64,000 nucleotides of DNA from Candidatus Hydrogenedens sp. (lineage in GTDB: Bacteria; Hydrogenedentota; Hydrogenedentia; Hydrogenedentales; JAEUWI01): NCBI GenBank assembly GCA_016125095.1, contig WGMK01000010.1, positions 74,343 to 138,342 on the forward strand, read 5' to 3'. Under the pieces are notes generated by a model. That model did not search any database. It saw nothing but the letters and a program-made list of their open reading frames with translations, and was not told where the DNA came from. Shown piece after piece: positions 909 to 57,757 of this stretch. The position numbers and the translations under genes were made by a program. Position 1 is the first letter of the stretch; every line of letters starts with the position of its first letter.

Positions 909-3900
909 TCACACCGGCGCGTCGGCGAGAATCCATGCGGAAATAATGTCGAGGTCTTCGCCTTCGATGGTGCCGCCAAGCGGCATCTGCTCTCCGCTGC
1001 CGCCAGTCACGAGCGCCTGCGTTCCTTCCAGCTTGCGCCAGAGGTAGCTGTTCTCCAGCGACCCCGGCGTGATGCGGAGCATCTCCGCGTTGCTTGACGG
1101 CTGGCTCACCACGGCATTCACATCCGTCAGGTCGAGGCCGCCGAAGGTGCTGCCGATGTGGCAGCCCGAACAGTAGTTGTTCATCACCACCTGCACGTCG
1201 GCCGACGTCGGCCCAACGCAGGGTGCATCGGTGCCCGGTCCCGCGGCGAACCCGTCTTCCGTGCCGCACTCGACATGGTAGCCCAGGTTATTGAAGAACT
1301 GGATCGCGCGCAGCAGTTCCGACAGCGACAGCATCCAGTCGCGCGGGTTGTAGTCGCCGGTGTGCGGGGTGCATTGCTGCGCGCTCTCGTCGAAACCGAT
1401 CACATAGCCATCCTCGCCGGGCAGTTGGGTTTCCGCGCAGGCGAAGCCATCGGCGTTGAAGAACTGGATGATACGCAGCAATTCCGACAGATCCAGCAGG
1501 CCGTCCTGGTTGATATCCGCCGAAGAGAACAGCACATCGCCGCTGCCCTCGCCATCCACCTGACCTTCACCGCCGCCCTGGCCTTCGCCGTCGGGGCTGC
1601 CCTCGCCTTCGCCCTCGATGGGCAGTGGCACCAGCACCTGGCCCGAGACTCCGGTGAGCGTGACCGTGCTACTCCCCGGAACAAAGCCGCTCGCGTTTTC
1701 GATGCCCAGCGTGTAGCTGTTGCCGGCGATGGCATTCGCGCCGGGGAGCATCGACACGAGACAAACCAGTCCATCGCCGATCAGGTTCGGCGTCTGGCTC
1801 GAGTCCGTGATGACGATGCCGATTCGTCCTGCCGACACCGGGAAGGATTGTATACCCTTGCCCTGGCCATTAAGTGTGGGAGAGATGGACGCTCCGCCGA
1901 ATTCAAGCACGTTGGGATCGAACACAAGGTCGAAGCCGAGGACTTGAATTTCCGCGCCTTGGAGGTCCGCATTGATCGCGATGCCGCCGTCGGTACTTCC
2001 GTTGGAAGCGATTAGCGACGGCAGCGCTCCGCCACCTTCGCCATCCATGGCGCCTTCTCCATCCACCATACCTTCGCCGTCCACGACGCCCTCGCCCTCG
2101 GGCTGTCCTTCACCATCGGTCAGGCCTTCTCCCTCGCCCTCGGTCGCGAGTCCGCAGTCGATGTTCACCGGACACGTGACGTTTTCCAAAACCGCATCAA
2201 TTTGGGCAAGCGTCGTCGCGTTAAACACCAGCGGCGTTGCGTCCGTGAAGCTCGACGCCATGATCGTATCGTCTTGGCCAGCCGTCGCACCCAGGTTGGT
2301 TGCGATCGACCGTGCGGCTGAGAGCACGTCGATCGAACCGCCGGACAGCGGGAAGGCGGCATCCTGACGTACGGTCACCATCGCGCTGCCGGTGCACGGC
2401 TGGCCTACAAAAGCGAGGCTTGCCGTTGCGCCGTAGCTTACAAGCGCGGGACTGAAGTCGTGGAAGAGATGCGTCGTGGCATCCGACCGCTCGCTGAGAT
2501 TGAAATTGCGGTACGCATCCAGCGTCGTACTCGCATCGGGCTCTGTTCCAGACGTCACTTCGAACGGCGAAGGCGTGCTCCACGCGACAATCTGGCAGAC
2601 GTTCACCTCGATGTTGAGATCGCGCAAGATGATGGCTGCGGCCTCGTCGAGCACCGCTGTTACATAAGTGCGCGCGGCGAGGGCATCGCCGCCGAATTCC
2701 GACGCTATGAGCCGGTTCTCGATATCCGCAATCAAGTCGACCCGGTAGGGCGCGCTTCCTTCGCCGTCCAATGCGCCTTCGCCCTCCGCGAGCGGGCACG
2801 TCGGGCTGCCCTCGCCTTCGCCTTCCACGGGCGGTGCGGCAGCAACATCGTAGATATACACGGCACCCGATCGTCGCCCGACGGTCTTGTGGTAGGGCGC
2901 GCCCATGGCCGCTTCGTCGGTCGTCAGCGCGACATCCCAGCCGGCCCGGTCCAGCGCCACGCCGTCGCTGGCGTCCAGTTCATCGCCGGGCGTCCAGGTT
3001 CCGGCGCTCCGCGAAAACACATACGCGGCGCCACTCGTGTTGTCGGCGCCGTCCGAACGGTACGCGCCCACCAGGGCGGTATCGCCCAGCAACGCGACGC
3101 TCGTGCCGAACTCAAAAACCTGCTTGCCGGCATCCGGCACGAGCTTCTGCTGCTGAATCCAGTTGCCGTTGCAGTTGACGAACACGTAGGCCGCGCCGCT
3201 GTTCACCCCGGTCGCTTCGGCATCCGTCGTCGTGAAGATCAGTGTATTCCCCGACAGCGCGACGTCTTGGCCCAGTTTCGTGCTGGTGGCCGGATCCTCG
3301 ATGATCGCCCGCTGAGACAGTGCCCAAGTGCCGCCTATCCGCTCGAAGATATACACACCGCCCGTGTCGAAAAACTCCTCGTCTCGGTTCGGTGCGCTGA
3401 TGGCTGCGATATCGCCCGCAAGCGCCACACGGAAGCCGAAGCCGTCCTGGAAGCCCGGCGAGTCCAGCGTCAGCTTCTGCTGTTCGGTCCATACGCCCGC
3501 GTCGCGCGTGAACACATAGGCCGCACCCGCATTCGGTTGGCCTGCGTCGGCGGCGTTGGCGCCCGCGATGAGGGTGTCGCCCTCCAGTGCAAGGCCCGTT
3601 CCGAGCAGATCGACTGCCGCGCCGTCAGAGGCCGTGAGCTTCTGCTCCAGCGACCAGGCCACCCCGCTGCGGGTATACACATAAACGGCCCCGGCGTTCT
3701 CGCCGTTGTCGTCGTCGGCGGTCGCGCCTATGGCGAGCGTATCGCCGGAGAGCGCGACGGAGCGGCCGAAGCCCTGTGCGTGGGTGGAATCCGCCGCAGC
3801 GATGCGGGCCTGGAAATCCCAAGACTCGCCGGAACGCAGGTAGACGTAAACCACGCCGCGGCTGGCCTCGCTCGGCGCCCCAATGGCCAGCGTATCCCCA

Positions 3901-5150
3901 TCGACGGCCAATGCGCTGCCCAGTTCGGCGGCGTTGTCCGCGGTCAGGCGCTCTTCGAGGTCCCAGTTGGAGCCGCTTCGCTTGAATACATGCGCGCTAC
4001 CGGAGGTATCGCCCAATAAGCCGGCGCGCGGCGCGCCTGCGATTATTGTGCTTTCGTCGAGCGAGACGGAAAAGCCCAAACGGTCGCCAATGGAAGCCCC
4101 GGGCGAAACTGCGCGCTGTTGAAGCTGCCAGCTATCCGTCAGGTAAATGAAAACCGATACCGAACCGGCGCCATCGAAGGGAGCTGCCACGGCAATGGTC
4201 GTGTCTGTAAGCGTGACGCTGCTGCCGAAGCGTGATGCGGCCTCGGTGCCGGTGGGCAAGAGGATTTGTTCTTCGGAAAAGACGCCGCCACTCCGGCGGA
4301 AAACGTACGCGGCACCACCATCGGAGTCATTGCCCGACGCTCCGATCACGGCAAGGTCATTGGACAGGTCCAGCGATTCACCGAAGAAATCGAACGTGTC
4401 TGCATCGCTCGCCGTAAGTTTCTGGTCTTCGCTCCAAGACGAGCCAGCGCCGGTGAACACATAAACATTGCCCTGCCGCACGTTCTTCTGGCTTGCCCCT
4501 GCGAGAATCGTGGTGCCGGAAAGGGCCACGCTGCCGCCAAAGGCATCGCTCACCGAACCGTCGGATGCCGTCAGTTTCTTTTGCTCTGTCCAGACACCGC
4601 CGCTTCGCGTGAATACATAGGCGGCGCCGCGCTGGCTGGCATCGCCGGAGGCGCCTGCGACGAGCGTATCGCCCTCAATGCTCACACTGATTCCGAACCG
4701 GTTTCCCCCGCTACCGTCGCTCGCGGTGAGCACTTGCTGGAGTACCCATTCAAAGCCATCCCGGATGTACACATACACCTGGCCCGGTGCCGTGGGAGTC
4801 CCAGCGGCTCCCACTACAATCGTGGTATCGGTAAGGGCGACGCTGGTACCAAGGGATGTCAGCGTATCGGCATCGGAATCGAAGAGCTTCTGCTCCAGCG
4901 CCCAACTCGCTCCAGTCCGCAGAAAAACGTATGCAGCCCCTTCGCCCGAGAGTACGCTATCCTCGAAGGGGGCCCCGACAACGGCCCGGTCGCCCGCAAT
5001 CGCCGTGCTATACCCGAATTGATCGAAAGCCCCCGGATAGATTCCGCCGATCGCTTGTGTCTCTGTTTGCGTCACCGCAAGTGCCGGTACTGCAAATGCC
5101 GCAATAGCAACCAGGACCATGCATGTGAATGAAGCGCGCGGGATTCTCAT
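909..5150 (-). CDS. Giant secreted FG-GAP (integrin-alpha-like) repeat protein, 1413 aa. N-terminal signal peptide, about 13 repeats ending in GAAYVF, EGEGEG linkers, a possible cohesin-like beta-sandwich, a dockerin/EF-hand-like pair, and a C-terminal CxxCH (PSCyt1-like) motif
   Basis: ATG at 5150 with GAGAGG upstream. Signal peptide MRIPRASFTCMVLVAIAAFAVPALA. Recurrent FGxSVAL..GDTL.IGA...GAAYVF units. Low-complexity EGEGEG runs. DINQDGLLDLSELLRIIQFFN and DWMLSLSELLRAIQFFN segments. YCSGCHIGSTFGGLDLTD near the C-terminus. Confidence 0.85.
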   Translation of the reverse strand: MRIPRASFTCMVLVAIAAFAVPALAVTQTETQAIGGIYPGAFDQFGYSTAIAGDRAVVGAPFEDSVLSGEGAAYVFLRTGASWALEQKLFDSDADTLTSLGTSVALTDTTIVVGAAGTPTAPGQVYVYIRDGFEWVLQQVLTASDGSGGNRFGISVSIEGDTLVAGASGDASQRGAAYVFTRSGGVWTEQKKLTASDGSVSDAFGGSVALSGTTILAGASQKNVRQGNVYVFTGAGSSWSEDQKLTASDADTFDFFGESLDLSNDLAVIGASGNDSDGGAAYVFRRSGGVFSEEQILLPTGTEAASRFGSSVTLTDTTIAVAAPFDGAGSVSVFIYLTDSWQLQQRAVSPGASIGDRLGFSVSLDESTIIAGAPRAGLLGDTSGSAHVFKRSGSNWDLEERLTADNAAELGSALAVDGDTLAIGAPSEASRGVVYVYLRSGESWDFQARIAAADSTHAQGFGRSVALSGDTLAIGATADDDNGENAGAVYVYTRSGVAWSLEQKLTASDGAAVDLLGTGLALEGDTLIAGANAADAGQPNAGAAYVFTRDAGVWTEQQKLTLDSPGFQDGFGFRVALAGDIAAISAPNRDEEFFDTGGVYIFERIGGTWALSQRAIIEDPATSTKLGQDVALSGNTLIFTTTDAEATGVNSGAAYVFVNCNGNWIQQQKLVPDAGKQVFEFGTSVALLGDTALVGAYRSDGADNTSGAAYVFSRSAGTWTPGDELDASDGVALDRAGWDVALTTDEAAMGAPYHKTVGRRSGAVYIYDVAAAPPVEGEGEGSPTCPLAEGEGALDGEGSAPYRVDLIADIENRLIASEFGGDALAARTYVTAVLDEAAAIILRDLNIEVNVCQIVAWSTPSPFEVTSGTEPDASTTLDAYRNFNLSERSDATTHLFHDFSPALVSYGATASLAFVGQPCTGSAMVTVRQDAAFPLSGGSIDVLSAARSIATNLGATAGQDDTIMASSFTDATPLVFNATTLAQIDAVLENVTCPVNIDCGLATEGEGEGLTDGEGQPEGEGVVDGEGMVDGEGAMDGEGGGALPSLIASNGSTDGGIAINADLQGAEIQVLGFDLVFDPNVLEFGGASISPTLNGQGKGIQSFPVSAGRIGIVITDSSQTPNLIGDGLVCLVSMLPGANAIAGNSYTLGIENASGFVPGSSTVTLTGVSGQVLVPLPIEGEGEGSPDGEGQGGGEGQVDGEGSGDVLFSSADINQDGLLDLSELLRIIQFFNADGFACAETQLPGEDGYVIGFDESAQQCTPHTGDYNPRDWMLSLSELLRAIQFFNNLGYHVECGTEDGFAAGPGTDAPCVGPTSADVQVVMNNYCSGCHIGSTFGGLDLTDVNAVVSQPSSNAEMLRITPGSLENSYLWRKLEGTQALVTGGSGEQMPLGGTIEGEDLDIISAWILADAPV

Positions 5151-28825: not shown

Positions 28826-28980
28826 GCCGGTAAGTTCGGAGCAGTGTGCTTGTGGCATTGAGTGGGCGTCCGGCGGGTCGAACGCGCTGGACGGGTGGAT
28901 TATCCTGCACAGGCTTCCGGGGCGCGTCGCGATGAGGGACCGTGGCCCCGCCGGGCAGCTTAATTTTTAGGAGTGACTTC

Positions 28981-31900
28981 ATGCACCAGGGATTCAAGGG
29001 GTTGCGCGGGGCGGCCATGCTGCTGCTTTGCACGGCACTCGCGGGCATACTGAGCGGCTGTCCTACGGCCAACGTGGGCTTGGCCTTGCTGCCCAGTCCG
29101 CAGCAGCTTGATTTCGGCACGGGGTCGACCACGATTACCCTCTCGGTGAAAACGAACTTCAGCACCTCCACGCCGGAGCCGCTCGTTATCAAGGCCAGCG
29201 ATCCGTGGATCGTGGTGGCCCGATGCACCGACCCCGCCGAGAACTGCCTATCGGGCTCTCTCACGGAAATGACGCTGGTCTCCATCAGCGTGGACCGGAC
29301 CAAGACGGCCGCCGGCACCAACCGCGGCTCGGTGCGTCTCGAGTGCGGCGGCGCTACCCCCGTGATTGTGCCGGTGATCGCCGAAGATATCCTGCAGGCG
29401 GACTTCGAACTGAGCCGACGGCAGGTCGGCGTGGGCGAAGCCGTCAATTTCAGCAATACCAGCGTAGGCACTGCGCAGTCGGGTCCCATCACCGCCTATC
29501 TCTGGAATTTTGGCGACGGTACGACCAGCACGCAGCGCACGCCCTCGCACGTGTACGGTCGCCCGGGTGTGTACGACGTGACCCTGACGGTGACGGCCGC
29601 CAACGGCACTGAGACCATTGTCCGCGAAGACTTCGTGGTGGTAGGCGATCCGCAGCCCGCTCCCGATTTCAGCGGCACGCCCCGCGAAATCTTTGTGGGC
29701 GATGTGGTGGCTTTTACCGATAAGACCGCGACGGATGCCGGACGCGTTATCAGCCGCCTCTGGGACTTCGGCGACGGCAAGACCTCGACCGCGCTGAACC
29801 CCACGCATCGCTACGACAGCCCCGGTCTGAAGACCGTGGCGTTGACCGTGAGCACCGAATTCGCCACCGCGAGCGGCTCGAAGCCGGGCTATGTGCTGGT
29901 GAAGCGCAAGGTGCCGCCGGTGGCGGCCATTGCCGTCAGCACGGTGAACCCGCTCGTGGGCGAGGCCATCCAGTTCAACGACGCCAGCGAGCCGGGCACC
30001 AAGCCGGCTTCCGCCTGGATTTGGGACTTCGGTGATGGCACGGTGAGTACCAAGCAGAATCCGACGCACGTGTATTCGCGCGCCGGCACCTACACGGTGA
30101 AACTCACAGTGAGCACGCCGCACGGTTCCGACTCCACAACCATTTCGCTTTCCCTGAACTTCCAGGCGCCCAGCGTGAACTTCGAGGCGCTCAACGTCAA
30201 TCCGTCCACCTGTTCCGATCCCATCGCCTGCCCCGAGGCCGTGCAGTTTGTCGATCGCACGAATCCGGGCAGCGGCACAATCGTGAGTTGGGCGTGGGAT
30301 TTCGGCGACGGCGGCACCAGCAATCAGCGCAACCCGAAGCACGGCTACAAGGCGGTCGGCACGTACACTGTCAGCCTGACCGTGAAGACCACGGCGCCGC
30401 AGAACAACCTGGGCACCGAGACGAAGCAGAACTACATCGTTGCCGTGAACCCGCCGCGTCCGGGCTTCCGTATCGGCCAGCGCAGCCCCTTCACCTCGAG
30501 CCCCGTTTCATTTATTAACGAGACCCTCATCGGCACCGAGACTGACGTGAGCTACGCCTGGGATTTCGACGGTCTCGACACGACCACGACCGACCGCAGC
30601 ACCGATGTGAACCCGACCTATCAATACACGCAGGCGGGCACCTACAACGCGCGCCTGACGGTCTCCACGGCCACGCGCAGTGAGGTCTTCTCGATGCCGG
30701 TGATCGTGGATGGCGTCACCACGCCGAAGTTCACGGCTGCGCCCCGCGCCGCGACCACGGCGACCATCGTGCAATTCACTGATACGACCGAGGCAGGCCG
30801 CTCGGGCGCCGGCTCCGGCAATGTGCCGATTTCGGCCTACCGCTGGGAATTCGGCGATGGCACCATCGCCACCACGCGTAATCCCACGCACCAGTATCAG
30901 GAGCCGGGCACCTACAACGTGAAACTCACGGTGACCTACAAGCACTCGGGTTCGGGCGACACCTTCACCGCGAACAAGGTCGAGACCGGATTCATCACGG
31001 TGACCTTCCCGACGCCGCCGACGGCCGACTTCTCGATTACGAACAGCGACTGCATCTTTACGGGCGACACCGTGAATTTCGCCGCCGTGACTGCGCCGGA
31101 AATCGATAGCTACGAATGGAACTTCGGCGATCCGGGCAGCCCGAACAACACCGACAGTGCCAGTTCGCCGAGCCACACCTACTCTGGCCCGGGCGTGTAC
31201 ACGGTGACCCTGACGGTCACCGACCTCGACCTGCGTGCTCCGTTCAATACCGACACCACGCAATTCGACCTGGTGGTCGCGGACTTCACCGACCTCGATA
31301 TGTACGTGCGCACGCCGGACCCGCGCTTCACGTTCAACCAGGTAGGGAATTCGATCCCGATTACCATCGGCCTGACGACGGCCGGCACGGCCTTCAACCT
31401 GTACATGGTTTCGGGCACCTGGCGCACGAACGCGGATATTACCGTCGGCGCCGGTATTCAGGACTACATCGCCTGGAAGCACAACCTCACCATCTTCGAG
31501 CCGGTGAATCGCACTGAAGACACGGCGCTCCTGTTTGTCAGCGGCGGCAGCCGTACCGACGACCCGCCGACGGAAGCCGACCTGCGCGACCTGAGCCTGG
31601 CCGAGATCGCCGTCGCGACCGCGTCCCCGATGGTCATCCTGGACGACGTGCCCGCGCAGCCCATCGATTTCATCGGCGATACGGGCGGCGCTAAGGTCGA
31701 AGACGCCATCATCGCGTGGAGCTTCAACAAGTACCTGACCGATTTCCGCGCGGGTCGCCCGGTTTACCCGGCGGCGGCGGAACCCTGGCCGGTCGTGCAG
31801 ACCATGGCCCGCGCGGCCGTACGTGCCATGGATGTGGCGCAGGCGTTCTCGGCCTCGCAGGGCAATCGCATCGAAGACTTCGTGGTCACGGGCGCGTCCA

Positions 31901-32757
31901 AGCGCGGTTGGACGACCTGGCTGACGGGTATCACCGACTGCCGCGTGAAGGCCATGGTGCCCATCGTCATCGATGTGCTTAACATGGACCAGAACCTGGC
32001 GCACCACAAGGCGGTCTACCGCACGCAGCCGACGGGCACCTCGGGCGGCTTTTCGACCGCCGTGCAGGATTACACCGACCTCGGCGTGTTCGACCGCTTG
32101 GTGCCGGACGCCAATGGGAACCTGCCCGCCGACGCACTTGGTCTGCTCGCGCAGGTCGACCCCTACGAATACCGCAACCGGGTGATCATTCCGAAGTACC
32201 TGATCAATGCCAGCGGCGATGAGTTCTTCCCGAGCGATTCGTCGCAGTATTATCTCGACGATCTGCTCGGCGAGACGAACATCAGCTACATACCGAATGT
32301 CGGCCATAGCTTGGGCAATGACGCGGCGGATCCGTTCAACGAGGACAGCGCCTCGTTCATGCTCGCAAGCTGGTACCTCGCCATCCTGCAAGACGTGCCG
32401 CGTCCGAGCATCAGCTCGGCCTTCCCGGACGACAACACGATCGTCGTCAGCCTCGACAACCCGGCGGCGGGCACGCCCACGGTGCGCCTGTGGAGCATCA
32501 CCAACCCGACCCACCGCGATTTCCGCAAGGCCATTACGGATTCGCTGGGCCGCAGCTGGACCTCGACGCAGTTGGCGCGCCAGGACGACGGCACCTACAT
32601 CGGCACGGTCAATACACCGGTTTCCGGTTGGACCGCGTTCTACATTCAGGTGCGCTTCCCCAACCCGGTCATTCCGGCGGTTATCGTGCCCGATGCGCCC
32701 ACGCCCGAGTTTGTTTTCTCGACACCAATCCGGGTGGTGCCCGACGTGCTGCCCTAG
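28981..32757 (+). CDS. Lipoprotein with about 8 PKD domains fused to a C-terminal PhoPQ-activated-pathogenicity-related (PqaA-like) alpha/beta hydrolase domain
   Basis: ATG at 28981 with TAGGAG upstream. MHQGFKGLRGAAMLLLCTALAGILSGC lipobox. Repeated WxFGDGT.S....P.H.Y...G.Y.V.LTV units. C-terminal GASKRGWTTW (GxSxG) region with PhoPQ_related-like similarity. Confidence 0.8.
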   Translation: MHQGFKGLRGAAMLLLCTALAGILSGCPTANVGLALLPSPQQLDFGTGSTTITLSVKTNFSTSTPEPLVIKASDPWIVVARCTDPAENCLSGSLTEMTLVSISVDRTKTAAGTNRGSVRLECGGATPVIVPVIAEDILQADFELSRRQVGVGEAVNFSNTSVGTAQSGPITAYLWNFGDGTTSTQRTPSHVYGRPGVYDVTLTVTAANGTETIVREDFVVVGDPQPAPDFSGTPREIFVGDVVAFTDKTATDAGRVISRLWDFGDGKTSTALNPTHRYDSPGLKTVALTVSTEFATASGSKPGYVLVKRKVPPVAAIAVSTVNPLVGEAIQFNDASEPGTKPASAWIWDFGDGTVSTKQNPTHVYSRAGTYTVKLTVSTPHGSDSTTISLSLNFQAPSVNFEALNVNPSTCSDPIACPEAVQFVDRTNPGSGTIVSWAWDFGDGGTSNQRNPKHGYKAVGTYTVSLTVKTTAPQNNLGTETKQNYIVAVNPPRPGFRIGQRSPFTSSPVSFINETLIGTETDVSYAWDFDGLDTTTTDRSTDVNPTYQYTQAGTYNARLTVSTATRSEVFSMPVIVDGVTTPKFTAAPRAATTATIVQFTDTTEAGRSGAGSGNVPISAYRWEFGDGTIATTRNPTHQYQEPGTYNVKLTVTYKHSGSGDTFTANKVETGFITVTFPTPPTADFSITNSDCIFTGDTVNFAAVTAPEIDSYEWNFGDPGSPNNTDSASSPSHTYSGPGVYTVTLTVTDLDLRAPFNTDTTQFDLVVADFTDLDMYVRTPDPRFTFNQVGNSIPITIGLTTAGTAFNLYMVSGTWRTNADITVGAGIQDYIAWKHNLTIFEPVNRTEDTALLFVSGGSRTDDPPTEADLRDLSLAEIAVATASPMVILDDVPAQPIDFIGDTGGAKVEDAIIAWSFNKYLTDFRAGRPVYPAAAEPWPVVQTMARAAVRAMDVAQAFSASQGNRIEDFVVTGASKRGWTTWLTGITDCRVKAMVPIVIDVLNMDQNLAHHKAVYRTQPTGTSGGFSTAVQDYTDLGVFDRLVPDANGNLPADALGLLAQVDPYEYRNRVIIPKYLINASGDEFFPSDSSQYYLDDLLGETNISYIPNVGHSLGNDAADPFNEDSASFMLASWYLAILQDVPRPSISSAFPDDNTIVVSLDNPAAGTPTVRLWSITNPTHRDFRKAITDSLGRSWTSTQLARQDDGTYIGTVNTPVSGWTAFYIQVRFPNPVIPAVIVPDAPTPEFVFSTPIRVVPDVLP

Positions 32758-40896: not shown

Positions 40897-41155
40897 AGTC
40901 ACCAAAGTATAAAACATCCGCGCGAACACTATCCGACATGCAAAGTCACGCGGCGCGGAGCGCCGTGCGGGGGCGTTACACCGCAGAGCGTTGTAACGAG
41001 GGTAGGAGCGGTGTAACGAGAATCAAAATCATATTCGCAACTTCCGGATTCGTAGGTAGTTAGGGGCGCGTGTCGTGGCATTCTTGCCTCGGAAAATGCT
41101 ACGCTCGGGGGCCGCGTTGGTTGGCACGCGGGCGATTTGCACCGGCCGGAGCATT

Positions 41156-43456
41156 ATGTACGAAGCGTTTTACGGACTGCGGGAACGGCCCTTTAATCTG
41201 ACGCCGGATCCCAAGTTTGTCTACCTGAGCGAAAAGCACAAGGAGGCGTTCGCGCACCTCCTGTTCGGCATCCAGAACCGCAGCGGATTCGTGATGCTTA
41301 CGGGCGAAATCGGCACCGGCAAGACGACTATCTGCCGCAACCTGATTCATCAGCTCGATCCCAAAATCGACCTCGCGCTCATCTTCAATCCGGCGCTGAA
41401 TCCCGTCGAGCTGATCCAAAAGATTAACGACGAATTCGGCATCAGTTCCGACTCCGACAACATCCGCGTGCTGGTGGATCATCTCAATGAGTTCTTGCTG
41501 AATTCCTTCGCCGACGGGCGCAGCAGCGTGCTGATTATCGACGAGGCGCAGAACCTGTCGCCCGCCGTACTCGAGCAGATCCGGCTGCTGTCCAATCTCG
41601 AGACCGAGACCGAGAAGCTGCTGCAGATCATCCTCATCGGCCAGCCCGAACTGGGCGAGAAGCTGGCGCTGCACGAACTCCGCCAGCTCAACCAGCGCAT
41701 AACCGCGCGTTATCACCTCGCCGAGCTCTCCGAGAAAGAGACGCTGCAGTACATCAATTACCGGCTGCACGTGGCAGGCGGCCGCCGTCGCGTACGATTC
41801 GACAAGCGCGCGGTCAAGGCCATCTTCAAGTTCAGCGGCGGCACGCCTCGCGTCATTAACGCCGTGTGCGACCGCTGCCTGCTGATTGGCTACACCAAGG
41901 AACTTCACACCATCGACGCGGCCGTGGCCAAGCAGGCCATCCGTGAGATTCGCGGCGCCTACGTCAGTTCGCAGCCCCGCGGCTGGAAGCGCTGGGGCCA
42001 GTTGCTGCCCGGGGCGCGTCTTGTCACGGCTGCCGTCCTGTTTTTCGTTGTTGCCGCCGGGGCGGGCGCGTTTCTCTCGCAGCCCATCCGCGACCTCGCT
42101 AAGGAACTGAGCGACTTCAATCATTTGTTGGCCGACGACGGTCCCGAGGAAGTGGTGGGACTCTCTCCGGAACGCAAGACCCCGGCGCCCGGCACGGTGT
42201 CCTCCGAGGCCGAGCCCAGCCCGGTGGTCAGGAAACTGGCGGAGAAGATTGTCGAGCGTTCCGAGCCGAATGCTGAACCGGTGCCTCCGTCCGAGCCGAG
42301 CCTCAGCGAGAGGCTTGTAACGGCGGCGCCCGACGAATCGCTCCGTGCCGCGAGCGCGGCCATGCTGGCGGCCTGGGGCCGCACCCTCGATGGCGAGTAT
42401 CCCCAGGAAGACTCCGTTGAGGTCATCGCTGCCTTTGCCGACCGGCACGACCTCGCTCACGAACTGCTCAAACCCGCGCTCGACCAGTTGCTCGCGCTCG
42501 ATCTGCCTGCCCTCATCCGCGTCCGCACCGGAGACGAAACCCGGTGGGCCGGCCTGATCGGCTACAGCGGCGGCAATGTCCGGCTGACGGGCGGCATGGG
42601 CGAGAGCATCGAGGCCAGCCGCGACGCCTTGCGCGATGTGTATGCCTCGGAAGCGCTCGTGCTGTGGGCGGATCCCACGCCCGGTGCGGGGGCGCTGCTT
42701 CAAGGACGCCGCAGCCCGGCGGTCGCGAAGTTCAAGGCGCAGCTGCGCAAACTCGGCCGCCTCCGTCCCGCGAATACCTCCGACGAATACGACACCGAGA
42801 CGGCCACGGCCGTATCCCGACTGCAATCGGAAACGGGGCTGCTACTCGACGGCATGGCCGGGCGTCAGGTGCGTATGGTGCTGACCAGCTGGCTGCCGTC
42901 TTCCGGCGCGCCCAGCCTGTCCGATGGAAACCTGGTGGTACCGGGTGACGAGGCGCTTTCGACGGCGGCCGTAAGCGTCAAGGATACCGTCCCGGCCGCC
43001 GTCGCAGAGCCGACGCCTCCGCCCGCGCCAGCAGCGCCGCTCGCATCGCAGGCCACCGAACCTGCTACCGTTGAACCACCCGTCGAGGCTCAGGCTGAAC
43101 CGGAGCCTCCCGCGATGCCCGAGCCCCCGGCAGAAGCATCCGAAGCGACCGCCGATGCTCCGGCCGCCCCGACCGCGGAAGAGGGTAATCCGCTTCCCTC
43201 GGCCATTGCTGCGGAAGAAACGCCGTCCGTCCCCGAGAGCGAGCCGGCGCCAGAACCCCAGGCCGAACCGCAGCCGGAGCCGGAAGCGCCAGCAATCGAA
43301 GAGGGGGCCGTGGACGATGGGGCACTCGTAAGCGTGCAGGAATTGCCGAAGCCCTTCGCGGCCGGTGAATCGTTTGAGCCGAGTGAACTGGACGCGCGGA
43401 AGGAAGTAACGCCGCCGCTGGATGGGAATTCGCCGCTGGTACCGGCGGCAGAATAG
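41156..43456 (+). CDS. exeA: ExeA/GspA-like AAA ATPase with a long Pro/Ala/Glu-rich linker and a C-terminal peptidoglycan-binding domain
   Basis: ATG at 41156 with GGAG upstream. MYEAFYGLRERPFNLTPDPKFVYLSEKHKEAFAHLLFGI...LTGEIGTGKTT closely resembles the ExeA N-terminus. One TM segment. PG_binding-like DEYDTETATAVSRLQSETGLLLDGMAGRQV. Confidence 0.85.
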   Translation: MYEAFYGLRERPFNLTPDPKFVYLSEKHKEAFAHLLFGIQNRSGFVMLTGEIGTGKTTICRNLIHQLDPKIDLALIFNPALNPVELIQKINDEFGISSDSDNIRVLVDHLNEFLLNSFADGRSSVLIIDEAQNLSPAVLEQIRLLSNLETETEKLLQIILIGQPELGEKLALHELRQLNQRITARYHLAELSEKETLQYINYRLHVAGGRRRVRFDKRAVKAIFKFSGGTPRVINAVCDRCLLIGYTKELHTIDAAVAKQAIREIRGAYVSSQPRGWKRWGQLLPGARLVTAAVLFFVVAAGAGAFLSQPIRDLAKELSDFNHLLADDGPEEVVGLSPERKTPAPGTVSSEAEPSPVVRKLAEKIVERSEPNAEPVPPSEPSLSERLVTAAPDESLRAASAAMLAAWGRTLDGEYPQEDSVEVIAAFADRHDLAHELLKPALDQLLALDLPALIRVRTGDETRWAGLIGYSGGNVRLTGGMGESIEASRDALRDVYASEALVLWADPTPGAGALLQGRRSPAVAKFKAQLRKLGRLRPANTSDEYDTETATAVSRLQSETGLLLDGMAGRQVRMVLTSWLPSSGAPSLSDGNLVVPGDEALSTAAVSVKDTVPAAVAEPTPPPAPAAPLASQATEPATVEPPVEAQAEPEPPAMPEPPAEASEATADAPAAPTAEEGNPLPSAIAAEETPSVPESEPAPEPQAEPQPEPEAPAIEEGAVDDGALVSVQELPKPFAAGESFEPSELDARKEVTPPLDGNSPLVPAAE

Positions 43457-54883: not shown

Positions 54884-55101
54884 GGCCTGCTGTCCTCTTC
54901 TTGCGGGTCCGGATTGCTGCTCCATTTCCAGACCACCTTGCGCCATGTAAAGCGTAAATCGTGCCAAGTCTCGGGAATGGCAAATGTCTCACAACTTGAT
55001 GGAGTGTATGTACTTACAAATAAAATGCGGACCATTCCGAGAAATGGTCCGCATACAAGGTGGTCAGAGGGAGGTGCAATTCCCTACCGATTCGTAACTT
55101 T

Positions 55102-57576
55102 TTAGTCGAGGCAGGCCCCGTCTTCCGTATCGGTACAGGCCGTGTAGCCGCCGATGTTGTAGATCTGAATCGCCCGGAGCAGCTCCGAGAGATTGATGTT
55201 CCAGTCTTCAGGCGAGGTGTCGGCCGAGTGCGGCGCGCAGTCTTGGCCAGTCAGGTTGAGCGCGAAGCCGTCTTCCGTATCGCCTGGCAGCAGCGCGCAG
55301 CCGAAGCCGTTGGCATTGGCCAGCTGAATCACGCGCAGCAGTTCCGACAGCTCGAAGCGGAAGTCGGCGTTGGTATCCGCCGCATGCACTGCGCCTTCCA
55401 CTGCCTGGCGCAACTCGCCCACCGTAAGTCCGTTCGACGTCGTTACGTTCAGGTCGTTGTAGAGGGACTCCCCATCCAGATAGAAGGAGGTTCCCTTCTG
55501 GGCAAACAGATTGTCGAGGTAGTTGCTGCATTCGCCGAACGAAAGCTCGCGGTCCTCATTGCCGTCCAGCGAGAAGAACGCGACCAGCAGGGCGCGCGCA
55601 CCTTCCGACAAGGTAAGGAACACGTCTCCTTCGCCGCCGCCTTCGCCGCCGCCATCACCCTCGCCTTCCGTCTGGCCTTCGCCATCCTGCGCGCCTTCTA
55701 TCGCGCCCTCGCCCTCGGCCGCGCCGTCCGGCTGGCCTTCGCCATCGACGACGCCCTCGCCATCCGCCGCACCCTCGCTGGCGCCTTCACCCTCGACTGC
55801 GCCCTCCAGGGTGCCTTCGTGGGAACCTTCGCCCTCTACCGCGCCCTCGCCTTCGGAGACGCCTTCGGGGTTGCCCTCGATAGCGCCTTCACCTTCCGAG
55901 ATGCCCTCGGTCGAGCCTTCGACGATACCCTCGTGGCTGCCTTCGCCTTCGGCCACGCCTTCCGTCGAGCCTTCTACGGTACCCTCGCCGTCGGTGGCGC
56001 CTTCAATCGTTCCCTCGATAGCGCCTTCGCCATCGACCGTACCTTCGACTACACCTTCCGTCGATCCCTCGCCGTCAGCGCTTCCCTCGACCACGCCTTC
56101 CGTGTTGCCTTCACCATCTGTGCTGCCTTCGAAGGTTCCCTCGACCACACCTTCGCCTTCACCCTCGGCCGGCGTGTCTACCGTCACCACAATGTCGTTG
56201 CTAATCAGCGTCGTCGCCGCCTTGGCTCCGTTGGTGTTGCCGGATATTTCACAGCGGTAGGTGCCCGCGTCTCCCGCGGTAAACGACGGAATGCTCAGCA
56301 CCCGTCCGGTCTGGCTGCCCAGCAGCACGTTGTCCTTGAACCAGGCATAGGTAGGCACCTGGTTGCCGCCCGCGAGTACGACCTCCAGCACCAGCGGCTG
56401 CCCTTCCGCCACGGCGCCGTCTGTCGACTGCGCGGTGATGCGGAAGTTCGTGTCGAGATTCACGGTCAGATTGACGATCGAAGACGAGCGCTTCCACACG
56501 TCGTCCTCGACGGCCGCATAGAAGGCCCAGTCGTACGTGCTGTTGCCCGCAGGGATTGTTAAATAGTCGATGGTATAGGGCAACGCCGTGCTGAAGGCGC
56601 GCACAATGGTGGTCACCGCCGGGTCGACATTGCTGTCGGTGCGGCTCCACTGCGCGCGGGCGTCGCCCTTGCCCAGCGCCTGCAGGCCACCCGCGACACC
56701 GAGGTCGAAAAACTTCGAGAGGCCCGTGCTGGTCGTTCCGCCCACGGGGTCCGTGCTCACGCGCAGGGGCGGCGTAATGTGGCAGGCGTTCAGCCAGGCC
56801 TCGCGGTCCGCTGCGGCGGTGTATTCCGCACCGTTGTTCTGGCCACCGGGAATGTTGCTGTCGATATCGCCCGCCGCGCCGATATAGTTGGTGCCCGCGC
56901 TGCCGAAGCGTTGATAGTTGCTAGGGTTGAAGGAAATGCTGCTGTTCACCGTATTGACGATGCTCGCGTTCGATGTGCCGCGCGCGCCGAGTTCCAGCAG
57001 CTTCTTGAAATAGAACTCGGGGAAGTCCTGCCCGGTGCTTGAGCCGTTGTAATTGAAGTTCAGCAGCCCCGCTTCGCCGAGCGTGTAGTATCCGGCAAAG
57101 AAATTCAGTAGGCCCTGGCCCAGCGCTTCGTTGCCGTCCGCCGATACCAAGTCGATCAGATTGCACGAATAACCCGCGATCTGCATCAGCGTGCAGTTGA
57201 ACCCGGTGATCGTGAGGTCGGTATTCGCGCGGGCCTTGTTCGCCTGAAAGCCGGCCTGAATTGCGGCCACGGTGGCCGGCGTCAGCTGGTTCGTGCCGTA
57301 GGTTTGCGCGTCCGCCGTGTAATTGCCCATCAGGATCGCCGAAAGCATCGCGAATTGCTCCTGATCGGGAATGCCGTTCGCATCGCGGTCCTGGCCGTAG
57401 AGCAGGATAATTTCGTTCTGGCTCACCTCCGCGTTGGTATCGGCGATGGCCTGCATCGCGATGTCGAGCACGCGGAGCAGTCCATCGAAGTCCACGTCCA
57501 CGCCATCCGCACGGGCGGCAGTGCCGCTGAAAAAAAATGTTCCTGCTAGTAACCACGACCCCAAGAATCGACGCAT
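55102..57576 (-). CDS. Large secreted protein (824 aa): signal peptide, beta-rich N-terminal region, Ig-like domain, an (EGxxEGxxEG)n low-complexity array of about 180 aa, and a C-terminal dockerin/EF-hand-like Cys module paralogous to that of the 909..5150 protein
   Basis: ATG at 57576. MRRFLGSWLLAGTFFFSGTAARA signal peptide. Ig-like TYRCEISGNTNGA. The EGEGEG.VEGT repeat array. C-terminus ...DTNADFRFELSELLRVIQLANANGFGCALLPGDTEDGF...DWNINLSELLRAIQIYNIGGYTACTDTEDGACLD. Confidence 0.8.
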   Translation of the reverse strand: MRRFLGSWLLAGTFFFSGTAARADGVDVDFDGLLRVLDIAMQAIADTNAEVSQNEIILLYGQDRDANGIPDQEQFAMLSAILMGNYTADAQTYGTNQLTPATVAAIQAGFQANKARANTDLTITGFNCTLMQIAGYSCNLIDLVSADGNEALGQGLLNFFAGYYTLGEAGLLNFNYNGSSTGQDFPEFYFKKLLELGARGTSNASIVNTVNSSISFNPSNYQRFGSAGTNYIGAAGDIDSNIPGGQNNGAEYTAAADREAWLNACHITPPLRVSTDPVGGTTSTGLSKFFDLGVAGGLQALGKGDARAQWSRTDSNVDPAVTTIVRAFSTALPYTIDYLTIPAGNSTYDWAFYAAVEDDVWKRSSSIVNLTVNLDTNFRITAQSTDGAVAEGQPLVLEVVLAGGNQVPTYAWFKDNVLLGSQTGRVLSIPSFTAGDAGTYRCEISGNTNGAKAATTLISNDIVVTVDTPAEGEGEGVVEGTFEGSTDGEGNTEGVVEGSADGEGSTEGVVEGTVDGEGAIEGTIEGATDGEGTVEGSTEGVAEGEGSHEGIVEGSTEGISEGEGAIEGNPEGVSEGEGAVEGEGSHEGTLEGAVEGEGASEGAADGEGVVDGEGQPDGAAEGEGAIEGAQDGEGQTEGEGDGGGEGGGEGDVFLTLSEGARALLVAFFSLDGNEDRELSFGECSNYLDNLFAQKGTSFYLDGESLYNDLNVTTSNGLTVGELRQAVEGAVHAADTNADFRFELSELLRVIQLANANGFGCALLPGDTEDGFALNLTGQDCAPHSADTSPEDWNINLSELLRAIQIYNIGGYTACTDTEDGACLD
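55620..56170. repeat. Coding tandem low-complexity repeat (degenerate 9-12 nt units encoding EG/VEG/TEG)
   Basis: Repeated ggcgccttcgcc / ctcgccttc type units. It reads as PSPS repeats on the opposite strand, which are rejected ORFs. Confidence 0.8.
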
Positions 57577-57696: not shown

Positions 57697-57739
57697 ACAA
57701 AAAACGAAGCGCCCGGCAGGGAAAAACCCTGCCGGGCGC
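57697..57739 (-). terminator. Strong rho-independent terminator for ppdK (13-bp stem GCGCCCGGCAGGG/CCCTGCCGGGCGC, then a U-tract on the minus strand)
   Basis: Plus strand reads cacaaaaaacgaaGCGCCCGGCAGGGaaaaaCCCTGCCGGGCGC. On the minus strand the hairpin is followed by TTCGTTTTTTGTG. Confidence 0.8.
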
Positions 57740-57757
57740 CGGCAATAGGGGGAACGT

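What the first reader, a model, noticed from the sequence alone, without database searches (positions are those of the whole stretch)
55102..57576. Second large secreted repeat protein sharing a paralogous Cys-containing C-terminal module of about 100 aa with the FG-GAP protein
The C-terminal region DTNADFRFELSELLRVIQLANANGFGCALLPGDTEDGF...CAPHSADTSPEDWNINLSELLRAIQIYNIGGYTAC TDTEDGACLD aligns residue for residue in pattern with the FG-GAP protein's DINQDGLLDLSELLRIIQFFNADGFACAETQLPGEDGY...CTPHTGDYNPRDWMLSLSELLRAIQFFNNLGYHVECGTEDGF. The shared elements are two LSELLR.IQ helices, NxDGF(A/G)CA, PG(E/D)xEDG, C(T/A)PH, and a terminal CxTEDG. Two otherwise unrelated giant proteins, 50 kb apart, that share EGEG linkers and this module suggest a common sorting, anchoring or partner-binding domain (dockerin-like; I cannot assign it to a known sorting signal). 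It may be a cohesin-dockerin-style assembly system or a new C-terminal secretion tag.
Basis: seen in the sequence. Interest (0 to 1): 0.6.

Follow-up and report, generated by a model that had tools for sequence, protein, structure and literature searches.

The report
Disulfide-stapled dockerin-like docking module family
The last ~95 residues of this secreted protein are a calcium-loop, four-cysteine module that also ends thousands of other secreted proteins, mostly in the little-known phylum Hydrogenedentota, is in no domain database searched, and probably docks or sorts them at the cell surface.

Summary
Gene A (55102-57576, minus strand, 824 aa) and the FG-GAP protein B (909-5150, minus strand) share a ~95-aa module: 52% identity, E=6e-23, with only two copies in the window.

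The module is an internal duplication. Each half is a Ca-binding loop, an LSELLRxIQ helix and a Cys-closed hairpin. It belongs to a large unannotated family of 2,955 cluster representatives. There are at least 545 genomic copies, and the best 80 lie in 22 assemblies, 13 of them labelled Hydrogenedentota, with many copies per genome.

- **Position:** 92% of copies sit 1-12 residues from the C-terminus of Sec-signal proteins with unrelated passenger domains, often behind an acidic E/G linker. Some copies are N-terminal, internal (as in B) or multiple.
- **Cysteines:** the four Cys are lost only in pairs, which implies two disulfides.
- **Sequence databases:** Pfam gives only sub-threshold EF-hand and dockerin hits, and NCBIfam gives nothing.

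My best reading is a Ca-dependent, dockerin-like docking module for a shared but unidentified envelope partner. A sorting tag is the main rival. The "cohesin-like" segment in B could not be confirmed. I rate it a new variant of a known kind, of moderate interest.

The parts
55102..57576 (-). Gene A: 824-aa secreted multidomain protein, stop codon at 55102-55104
   Evidence: ORF and translation. The identical 824-aa product was called on an independent Logan contig. Terminator-like hairpins at 57740-57708 and 55054-55025 on the minus strand bracket the gene, suggesting a monocistronic unit.
57508..57576 (-). Sec-type signal peptide, aa 1-23 (MRRFLGSWLLAGTFFFSGTAARA, then DG)
   Evidence: Read from the sequence. 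By a crude heuristic the same kind of N-terminus occurs in 47 of 62 complete family proteins.
56443..57507 (-). Orphan N-terminal passenger region, aa 24-378
   Evidence: No Pfam hit at E<=10. Only 2 homologues among 5.8 billion proteins. Residues 243-456 are 25-28% identical to two other module-bearing proteins, in L035 and L049.
56197..56439 (-). Ig-like domain, aa ~380-460
   Evidence: Pfam Ig_3 at E=1.6e-8 and Ig_2 at E=3.7e-6.
55627..56175 (-). Acidic E/G linker, aa 468-650 (183 aa, 56% Glu+Gly)
   Evidence: Composition. Imperfect DNA tandem repeats of 12-78 nt. A comparable E/G linker precedes 108 of 228 family modules.
55387..55626 (-). EF-hand-pair-like spacer, aa 651-730
   Evidence: 38% identity to the stretch preceding the module in L022. 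Equivalent stretches in P0023, P0055 and P0069 carry Pfam EF-hand hits. A's own copy has no Pfam hit.
55105..55386 (-). The module, aa 731-824: two tandem halves, each a Ca loop, an LSELLRxIQ helix and a Cys-closed beta-hairpin
   Evidence: BLASTP against B. Family profile hit at E=1e-38. Internal duplication score of 89 against 20 +/- 4 in shuffles. AF2 pLDDT 94.9, with H15-25, E30-32, E43-45, H68-80, E83-85, E93-95.
55342..55377 (-). Ca-binding loop 1, aa 734-745 (DTNADFRFELSE): canonical 12-residue EF-hand loop
   Evidence: Family column frequencies: D1 100%, N/D3 92%, D/N5 98%, I8 81%, E12 100%.
55183..55221 (-). Ca-binding loop 2, aa 786-798 (DTSPEDWNINLSE): 13-residue variant loop
   Evidence: Family column frequencies: D 99%, D/N 97%, W 91%, I 85%, E 100%.
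55111..55299 (-). Span holding the four conserved cysteines C760, C780, C814 and C822, inferred to pair as C760-C780 and C814-C822
   Evidence: Cys positions. In 332 distinct modules the patterns are CCCC 268, CCxx 55, xxxx 4, xxCC 1 and unpaired 4.
1242..1532 (-). Paralogous module in the FG-GAP protein B, aa 1207-1303; internal, not terminal
   Evidence: An AF2 model of B 1036-1310 gives the same helix-hairpin-helix-hairpin topology for the module, at pLDDT mostly above 90.
909..5150 (-). Gene B (1413 aa).

Best explanation
Gene A ends in one member of a large domain family that is absent from the domain databases searched. The family is a ~95-aa extracytoplasmic module made of two tandem F-hand units. 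Each unit is a Ca2+-binding loop and a helix, extended by a small beta-hairpin closed by a disulfide.

Proposed mechanism:
1. The protein is exported by Sec through its N-terminal signal peptide.
2. In the oxidising periplasm the module binds Ca2+ and forms two disulfides (C760-C780 and C814-C822).
3. The long acidic E/G linker holds the module away from the passenger domains.
4. The module's highly conserved surface binds one common partner on the cell envelope. Dozens of unrelated enzymes and adhesins per genome are thereby tethered or displayed in the same way, as a dockerin tethers cellulosomal enzymes.

What is shown: the family, its architecture, its position in proteins, the paired cysteines, the calcium-loop signature, the confident fold model and the lineage restriction. 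What is inferred: Ca2+ binding, disulfide formation, and above all docking to a shared partner, whose identity is unknown.
For: - **Homology and duplication:** A and B match at E=6e-23. The two halves of A's module align with a score of 89 against 20 +/- 4 in shuffles.
- **Family size:** 2,955 representatives of 50%-identity clusters match at E<=1e-3 and 1,114 at E<=1e-30.
- **Genomic spread:** at least 545 confirmed copies occur in species-representative genomes. The best 80 lie in 22 assemblies, 13 labelled Hydrogenedentota, with up to 12 per assembly.
- **Position:** 93 of 100 modules in the fetched loci end within 8 aa of the stop codon. 134 of 146 top representatives are C-terminal, 5 N-terminal and 7 internal, and 16 carry 2-4 copies. 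This distribution resembles that of dockerins.
- **Export:** 47 of 62 complete proteins have a Sec-type signal peptide by a crude heuristic.
- **Passenger domains are unrelated:** Ig, LRR, PKD, CHRD, M14 peptidase, P-domain, lactonase, sulfatase, PETase-like and PhoPQ_related. Yet the modules stay 45-60% identical, with 8 columns invariant in the 46-module alignment A1 (E745, R748, G770, D786, L800, R801, Q804, E818 in protein-A numbering) and many more conserved in at least 90% of sequences. That points to one common binding or recognition constraint.
- **Calcium loops:** loop 1 has the canonical EF-hand ligand positions at 92-100% conservation. 35 of 46 modules give weak EF-hand hits and 5 of 46 give weak Dockerin_1 hits.
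- **Cysteines:** Cys are lost in pairs.
- **Genomic context:** there is no conserved neighbouring gene, and gene A looks monocistronic. This scattering is what is expected (from general knowledge, not tested here) for the cargo genes of a docking or sorting system.
Against: - No partner has been found.
- B's supposed cohesin-like segment could not be validated.
- hhalign against two type I dockerins gives only 57% probability over the Ca loop.
- Ca2+ binding, disulfides and surface location are all inferred, not measured.
- The extreme C-terminal bias (92%) fits a sorting tag equally well.
Confidence: 0.5

Rival explanations
1. The module is a sorting or secretion tag. After Sec export it would be recognised by a lineage-specific outer-membrane export or attachment machine. 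In logic it would work like the type IX secretion C-terminal domain, or like a structural signal for type II secretion, rather than by stable docking.
For: 92-93% of copies lie within 1-12 residues of the C-terminus. There are many cargo per genome with unrelated passengers. Passenger domains include GBD_T9SS_assoc, a domain Pfam names as T9SS-associated. The cargo genes are scattered with no operon partner.
Against: Functional-looking copies occur directly after the signal peptide (L030, L053, L073, P0115, P0137), internally (gene B, P0083, P0100) and in 2-4 copies per protein. No known sorting-signal model matches: NCBIfam gave no relevant hit for A or B. There is no terminal hydrophobic helix. 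The fold is helix-hairpin, not the beta-sandwich of T9SS CTDs.
Confidence: 0.2
2. There is no dedicated partner. The module would be a Ca2+-dependent stabilising or self-associating unit. It would rigidify secreted proteins, bind extracellular Ca2+ or an anionic polymer, or cross-link proteins into a matrix through module-module contacts.
For: Tandem and internal copies exist (P0082 has 4, P0084 has 3). Membrane-anchored proteins made of little more than tandem modules occur: P0133 is labelled Candidatus Buchananbacteria, and P0084/P0228 sit in a compact ribosomal-gene context. The module often co-occurs with extra EF-hand pairs and acidic linkers.
Against: Both faces of each helix are nearly invariant across paralogues. 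A merely stabilising domain would not be expected to show that much conservation. The strong terminal bias is also unexplained.
Confidence: 0.2
3. It is a genuine cohesin-dockerin pair, with the beta-rich segment of protein B (aa 1040-1175) acting as the cohesin for this module.
For: Dockerins are the top structural matches.
Against: The segment has no Pfam hit at all at E<=10, no PDB sequence hit and no homologue in 5.8 billion proteins or in 80 Hydrogenedentota loci. AF2 models it at pLDDT below 50. A receptor for thousands of cargo should be conserved, and this segment is an orphan.
Confidence: 0.05

Closest known systems
Type I dockerin (Pfam PF00404, EF-hand clan) of cellulosomal and non-cellulosomal proteins. 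The non-cellulosomal spread was surveyed by Peer et al. 2009, which I could not read and saw only in the reference list shown.
   Different: About 95 aa rather than 60-70. Each repeat is about 45-50 aa and adds a beta-hairpin closed by a disulfide, giving four conserved Cys. The second loop has 13 residues. The helix motif LSELLRVIQFYN is unrelated to the dockerin recognition residues. Scores fall below the Dockerin_1 threshold, hhalign probability is 57%, and no cohesin was found.
Canonical EF-hand domains (Pfam PF13405, PF00036, PF13499)
   Same: Loop 1 is a textbook DxNxDxxIxxxE loop. 35 of 46 modules give weak EF-hand_6 hits, and some relatives exceed the cut-off.
   Different: No entering E-helix appears in the model. 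The module is extracytoplasmic and disulfide-bonded, with beta-hairpin inserts. A itself scores nothing at E<=1.
Type IX secretion C-terminal domain, and short C-terminal sorting signals (PEP-CTERM, LPXTG, GlyGly-CTERM)
   Same: A lineage-restricted terminal element shared by many otherwise unrelated secreted proteins.
   Different: No NCBIfam or Pfam match. The fold differs: helix-hairpin, not beta-sandwich, with no transmembrane helix. It is not obligatorily C-terminal.
Extracellular disulfide-stabilised EF-hand pair of SPARC/BM-40. This is recalled from general knowledge and was not tested here.
   Same: An extracellular Ca-binding EF-hand pair stapled by disulfides and used for partner binding.
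   Different: It is eukaryotic, with no sequence or fold match returned in any search here. It is an analogy only.

Membership tests
Type I dockerin (PF00404) | Scores above the Pfam Dockerin_1 gathering threshold | tested here: not met
   A and B have no Dockerin_1 hit at E<=1. 5 of 46 modules give weak hits, best E=0.0019. The best relative, P0084, scores 21.3 bits against the 22.9 cut-off.
Type I dockerin (PF00404) | Two tandem Ca-binding loop-helix (F-hand) repeats | tested here: met
   Internal duplication is significant. Both units have a loop followed by a helix in the AF2 model, and the loop ligands are conserved. The repeat length is about 45-50 aa rather than about 22.
Type I dockerin (PF00404) | Dockerin fold | tested here: inconclusive
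Type I dockerin (PF00404) | Binds a cohesin module | not testable with these tools
   No cohesin was detectable. B's candidate segment has no Pfam, PDB or homologue support, and AF2 models it at pLDDT below 50.
EF-hand (PF13405 / PF00036) | Canonical 12-residue loop with ligands at positions 1, 3, 5 and 12 | tested here: met
   Loop 1 is DTNADFRFELSE in A. Family conservation is D 100%, N/D 92%, D/N 98%, E 100%. Loop 2 is a 13-residue variant.
EF-hand (PF13405 / PF00036) | Helix-loop-helix with an entering helix, and a score above threshold | tested here: not met
   Residues 1-14 of the model are coil. A has no EF-hand hit at E<=1 and B only E=0.03-0.18. Most family modules score below the cut-offs.
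T9SS C-terminal domain / PEP-CTERM, LPXTG-type sorting signals | Match to the curated sorting-signal models, obligatory C-terminal position, and a beta-sandwich or a transmembrane helix with a basic tail | tested here: not met
   NCBIfam gave no relevant hit for A or B at E<=1. A ends ...TEDGACLD with no hydrophobic helix. The fold is helix-hairpin. N-terminal, internal and multi-copy cases exist.

The most novel reading that the evidence does not exclude
The module marks the cargo of a previously undescribed surface-display or sorting system that runs across the phylum Hydrogenedentota. A disulfide-stapled double F-hand tag would be read by an unknown receptor or outer-membrane machine. The system would be functionally parallel to cohesin-dockerin or to the T9SS C-terminal domain, but evolved independently.
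Probability: 0.3. Interest if true: 0.75.

Novelty: new variant of a known kind. Interest (0 to 1): 0.55.

Why it matters
Hydrogenedentota are a globally distributed phylum known mainly from metagenome-assembled genomes, and how they handle their secreted proteins is largely unknown. A single conserved module on thousands of their secreted proteases, esterases, sulfatases and adhesin-like proteins gives three things:

- a simple sequence marker for the phylum's exoproteome
- a concrete handle, usable as pull-down bait or in phylogenetic profiling, for finding the receptor or machine that organises its cell surface
- a compact, Ca-dependent, disulfide-stabilised interaction module that could serve as an orthogonal docking tag in protein engineering

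It also fills a gap in the domain databases, since neither Pfam-A nor NCBIfam has a model for it.

Tried and rejected
- **Chance or low complexity:** rejected. The A-B match has E=6e-23 outside the E/G linkers, and the family is large.
- **More copies in the window:** none found by tblastn or by a six-frame HMM search.
- **Known-domain assignment:** Pfam and NCBIfam on A and B, and Pfam on 46 isolated modules, gave only sub-threshold EF-hand and Dockerin_1 hits. A profile search of PDB sequences gave nothing below E=0.27.
- **B's 'cohesin-like' segment:** Pfam at E<=10, phmmer against PDB, a word-indexed search of 5.8 billion proteins, phmmer against 80 loci and an AF2 model all failed to support or define it.
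- **Operon partner:** clustering 849 neighbouring ORFs from 80 loci found no recurrent neighbour beyond a few syntenic loci. The window neighbours are housekeeping or metabolic genes.
- **Phage-borne copies:** none in IMG/VR.
- **Literature:** searches and two Hydrogenedentota genome papers contain nothing on dockerin, EF-hand or secretion.
- **Unavailable or unusable:** the afdb50 fold library was not available. The third fold search was left unused because the second model was too poor. Model coordinates are not exposed, so Cys-Cys distances and surface conservation could not be measured.
- **Likely artefact:** Pfam TrAA12 hits in 13 of 53 family proteins. In the two proteins where the position was listed, the hit falls on or just before the E/G linker and next to the module, so I treat these as low-complexity artefacts.
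Full report
**1. Observation**

An independent assembly carries the identical 824-aa product with the same start. The FG-GAP protein, here called B (909-5150, minus strand, 1413 aa), has 14 FG-GAP_2 repeats and contains the quoted counterpart.

BLASTP aligns A 732-820 with B 1210-1300 at 52% identity, E=6e-23. Separate weaker matches come from the E/G linkers. tblastn and a family HMM run over all six reading frames find only these two copies in the 64-kb window.

In B the module is internal: a further 110 residues with a CSGCH motif follow it, and the fourth cysteine is displaced to C1311.

**2. Anatomy of A**

- aa 1-23: Sec-type signal peptide (MRRFLGSWLLAGTFFFSGTAARA, then DG).
- aa 24-378: an orphan region. 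It has no Pfam hit at E<=10 and only two homologues in 5.8 billion proteins.
- aa ~380-460: an Ig-like domain.
- aa 468-650: a 183-aa linker that is 56% Glu+Gly, encoded by imperfect tandem DNA repeats.
- aa 651-730: an EF-hand-pair-like spacer that recurs before the module in other family members.
- aa 731-824: the module.

Terminator-like hairpins on the minus strand flank the gene on both sides, so it looks monocistronic. Its neighbours are pyruvate phosphate dikinase, a small AAA-type kinase-like protein and metabolic genes, none related to secretion. The plus-strand ORFs across the linker (for example 55523-56260, Pro/Ser-rich) are antisense shadows of the E/G repeat.

**3. The module itself**

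It is an internal duplication. The two halves of A's module align with a Smith-Waterman score of 89, against 20 +/- 4 for 2,000 shuffles (maximum 49). Each half has three elements:

- a Ca-binding loop
- the helix LSELLRxIQ[FL][FY]N
- a GGYxC...TEDG[FY]...C hairpin

Across 371 distinct family modules, loop 1 carries the canonical EF-hand ligands: position 1 is D in 100%, position 3 is N/D in 92%, position 5 is D/N in 98%, position 8 is I in 81% and position 12 is E in 100%. Loop 2 is a 13-residue variant (D 99%, Y 94%, P 80%, D/N 97%, W 91%, I 85%, E 100%).

Four cysteines are nearly invariant, and they are lost in pairs. Among 332 distinct modules the patterns are CCCC 268, CCxx 55, xxxx 4 and xxCC 1, with only 4 unpaired. 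This implies disulfides C760-C780 and C814-C822, as expected for an extracytoplasmic domain.

AlphaFold2 with a 46-sequence alignment gives pLDDT 94.9 and pTM 0.84. The topology is helix, beta-hairpin, helix, beta-hairpin, with no helix entering the first loop. The module of B is modelled with the same topology, at pLDDT mostly above 90.

**4. The family**

A word-indexed search with A's module returned 81 short proteins, mostly contig-end fragments. Almost all of those with a source name are labelled Hydrogenedentes, Hydrogenedentota or Hydrogenedens. In about 70 of the 81, the module ends 0-8 residues before the protein end.

A profile of 46 trimmed modules was searched exhaustively against 1.84 billion cluster representatives. 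It matched 2,955 proteins at E<=1e-3, 2,565 at E<=1e-10 and 1,114 at E<=1e-30.

The best 80 lie in 22 assemblies, with up to 12 loci per assembly:

- 13 are labelled Hydrogenedentota, -tes, -tales or Hydrogenedens, including Ca. Hydrogenedens terephthalaticus.
- 6 are labelled 'uncultured Nitrospirales'.
- 3 are unclassified.

Some of the 'Nitrospirales' loci share neighbouring gene families with the Hydrogenedentota-labelled ones. From this I infer that they belong to the same lineage.

In those loci, 93 of 100 modules end within 8 aa of the stop codon. Several loci carry two or three module genes in tandem. Of 146 top representatives, 134 are C-terminal, 5 N-terminal and 7 internal, and 16 carry 2-4 copies. 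In the N-terminal cases the module sits directly after the signal peptide of LRR, PETase-like or sulfatase proteins.

By a crude heuristic, about three quarters of complete proteins (47 of 62) have a Sec-type signal peptide, and some have a lipobox. Passenger domains are diverse: Ig, LRR, PKD, CHRD, Flg_new_2, M14 carboxypeptidase, proprotein-convertase P domain, lactonase, PhoPQ_related and others. An E/G linker precedes 108 of 228 modules.

A few relatives lie outside the phylum. One is labelled Kiritimatiellia and one Candidatus Buchananbacteria. These relatives include membrane-anchored proteins made of little more than 2-3 tandem modules. Some of them lack the second Cys pair.

**5. Relation to known families**

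- Pfam-A and NCBIfam have no model for the module. A scores nothing at E<=1, and B gives only EF-hand hits at E=0.03-0.18.
- Scanned singly, 35 of 46 modules give weak EF-hand_6 hits (best 5.6e-5) and 5 of 46 give weak Dockerin_1 hits (best 0.0019).
- A three-module relative reaches 21.3 bits on Dockerin_1 against the 22.9 cut-off.
- A profile search of PDB sequences finds nothing below E=0.27.
- In Foldseek, dockerins again rank best (TM about 0.5 when normalised by dockerin length), but at E of at least 4.
- hhalign against two genuine type I dockerins gives 57% probability, restricted to the Ca loop. The dockerin sequences were taken from the output.

The module therefore belongs to the EF-hand/dockerin structural world (F-hand pair). 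It is a distinct, larger, disulfide-stapled variant and not a member of the dockerin family as Pfam defines it. It also fails every defining feature of T9SS C-terminal domains and of short C-terminal sorting signals.

**6. Mechanism**

Shown:
- a conserved, autonomous, duplicated module with a calcium-loop signature and paired cysteines
- attachment, mostly at the C-terminus, to many unrelated Sec-signal proteins within one lineage
- no operon partner

Inferred:
- Ca2+ binding and disulfide formation after Sec export
- the E/G linker acting as an extended spacer
- the near-invariance of both helix faces across paralogues reflecting recognition by one common partner

I favour stable docking to an envelope receptor, which is dockerin-like logic (confidence about 0.5). 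The reason is that the module also works in N-terminal, internal and repeated positions, as dockerins do.

The main rival is a sorting or export tag, which the 92% terminal bias would fit (0.2). A partner-less stabilising or self-associating Ca module is also possible (0.2). The specific idea that B's beta-rich segment is the cohesin is unsupported. That segment is an orphan with no Pfam, PDB or homologue signal and an unusable AF2 model.

**7. Novelty and verdict**

Searches of the held literature, including two Hydrogenedentota genome papers, turned up no description of the module. It is a new variant of a known kind: a new domain family in the F-hand/dockerin style. It is sizeable and lineage-defining, and it gives an experimental handle on the surface biology of a phylum known mainly from metagenome-assembled genomes. 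Interest is moderate (0.55). It would rise if the unknown partner turned out to define a new display or sorting system.

Noticed in passing
window 912-1241 (minus strand), protein B aa 1304-1413: After its module, B carries a 110-aa tail with a CSGCH haem-binding-type motif. It gives weak hits to Cytochrome_CBB3 (E=4e-4) and to planctomycete cytochrome c, PSCyt1 (E=0.015), both below threshold. A c-type-cytochrome-like domain at the end of an FG-GAP surface protein is unusual.
   Followed up: partly
window 2361-2747 (minus strand), protein B aa 802-930 and onward to about aa 960: This is a Reprolysin_5-like region (E=5.7e-6), but B has no HExxH motif anywhere. The stretch ARSIATNLGATAG at aa 946 is my unverified guess at where the zinc site would be. 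If so, this is probably a catalytically dead metalloprotease-like domain.
   Followed up: partly
It is an orphan: no Pfam hit at E<=10, no PDB sequence hit, no homologue in 5.8 billion proteins, and AF2 pLDDT below 50.
   Followed up: yes
window 55387-55626 (minus strand), protein A aa 651-730: An EF-hand-pair-like spacer lies directly upstream of the module. Equivalent stretches precede the module in P0023, P0055, P0069 and L022, where Pfam EF-hand models hit some of them. It may form a larger functional unit with the module.
   Followed up: partly
window 55060-56562 and 55523-56260 (plus strand): These long plus-strand ORFs, one of them Pro/Ser-rich, are antisense shadows of the GC-rich E/G-linker repeats of gene A. 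They are not genes.
   Followed up: partly
window 57708-57740 and 55025-55054 (minus strand): Terminator-like hairpins with T tracts (14 and 13 stem pairs) lie just upstream and just downstream of gene A. This suggests a stand-alone transcription unit.
   Followed up: no
window 28942-32757 (plus strand): This is a 1271-aa lipoprotein with 7 PKD domains and a PhoPQ_related domain, and it has no module. The same PhoPQ_related passenger occurs with the module in two proteins from other genomes.
   Followed up: partly
window 41075-43456 (plus strand): An AAA_22 plus PG_binding_1 protein. From general knowledge, this architecture resembles ExeA/GspA, an accessory factor of type II secretion. No other secretion genes were seen nearby.
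   Followed up: no
P0133, P0084/P0228 (locus L082), P0089, P0093: These relatives lie outside Hydrogenedentota. P0133 is labelled Candidatus Buchananbacteria, and P0084/P0228 sits in a compact ribosomal-gene context. They are small proteins with a signal peptide or N-terminal hydrophobic segment followed by 2-3 tandem modules. P0089 and P0093 also have a C-terminal transmembrane helix, and several copies lack the second Cys pair.
   Followed up: partly
P0076 and P0078 (metagenome fragments): A cysteine-free variant of the module has an RxGxVRTG insertion after each helix. Its source lineage is unknown.
   Followed up: no
family proteins in loci L034, L053 and others: Pfam TrAA12 hits occur in 13 of 53 family proteins. 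In the two proteins where the position was listed, the hit falls on or just before the E/G linker and next to the module. This is probably a low-complexity artefact that could mislead automatic annotation.
   Followed up: partly
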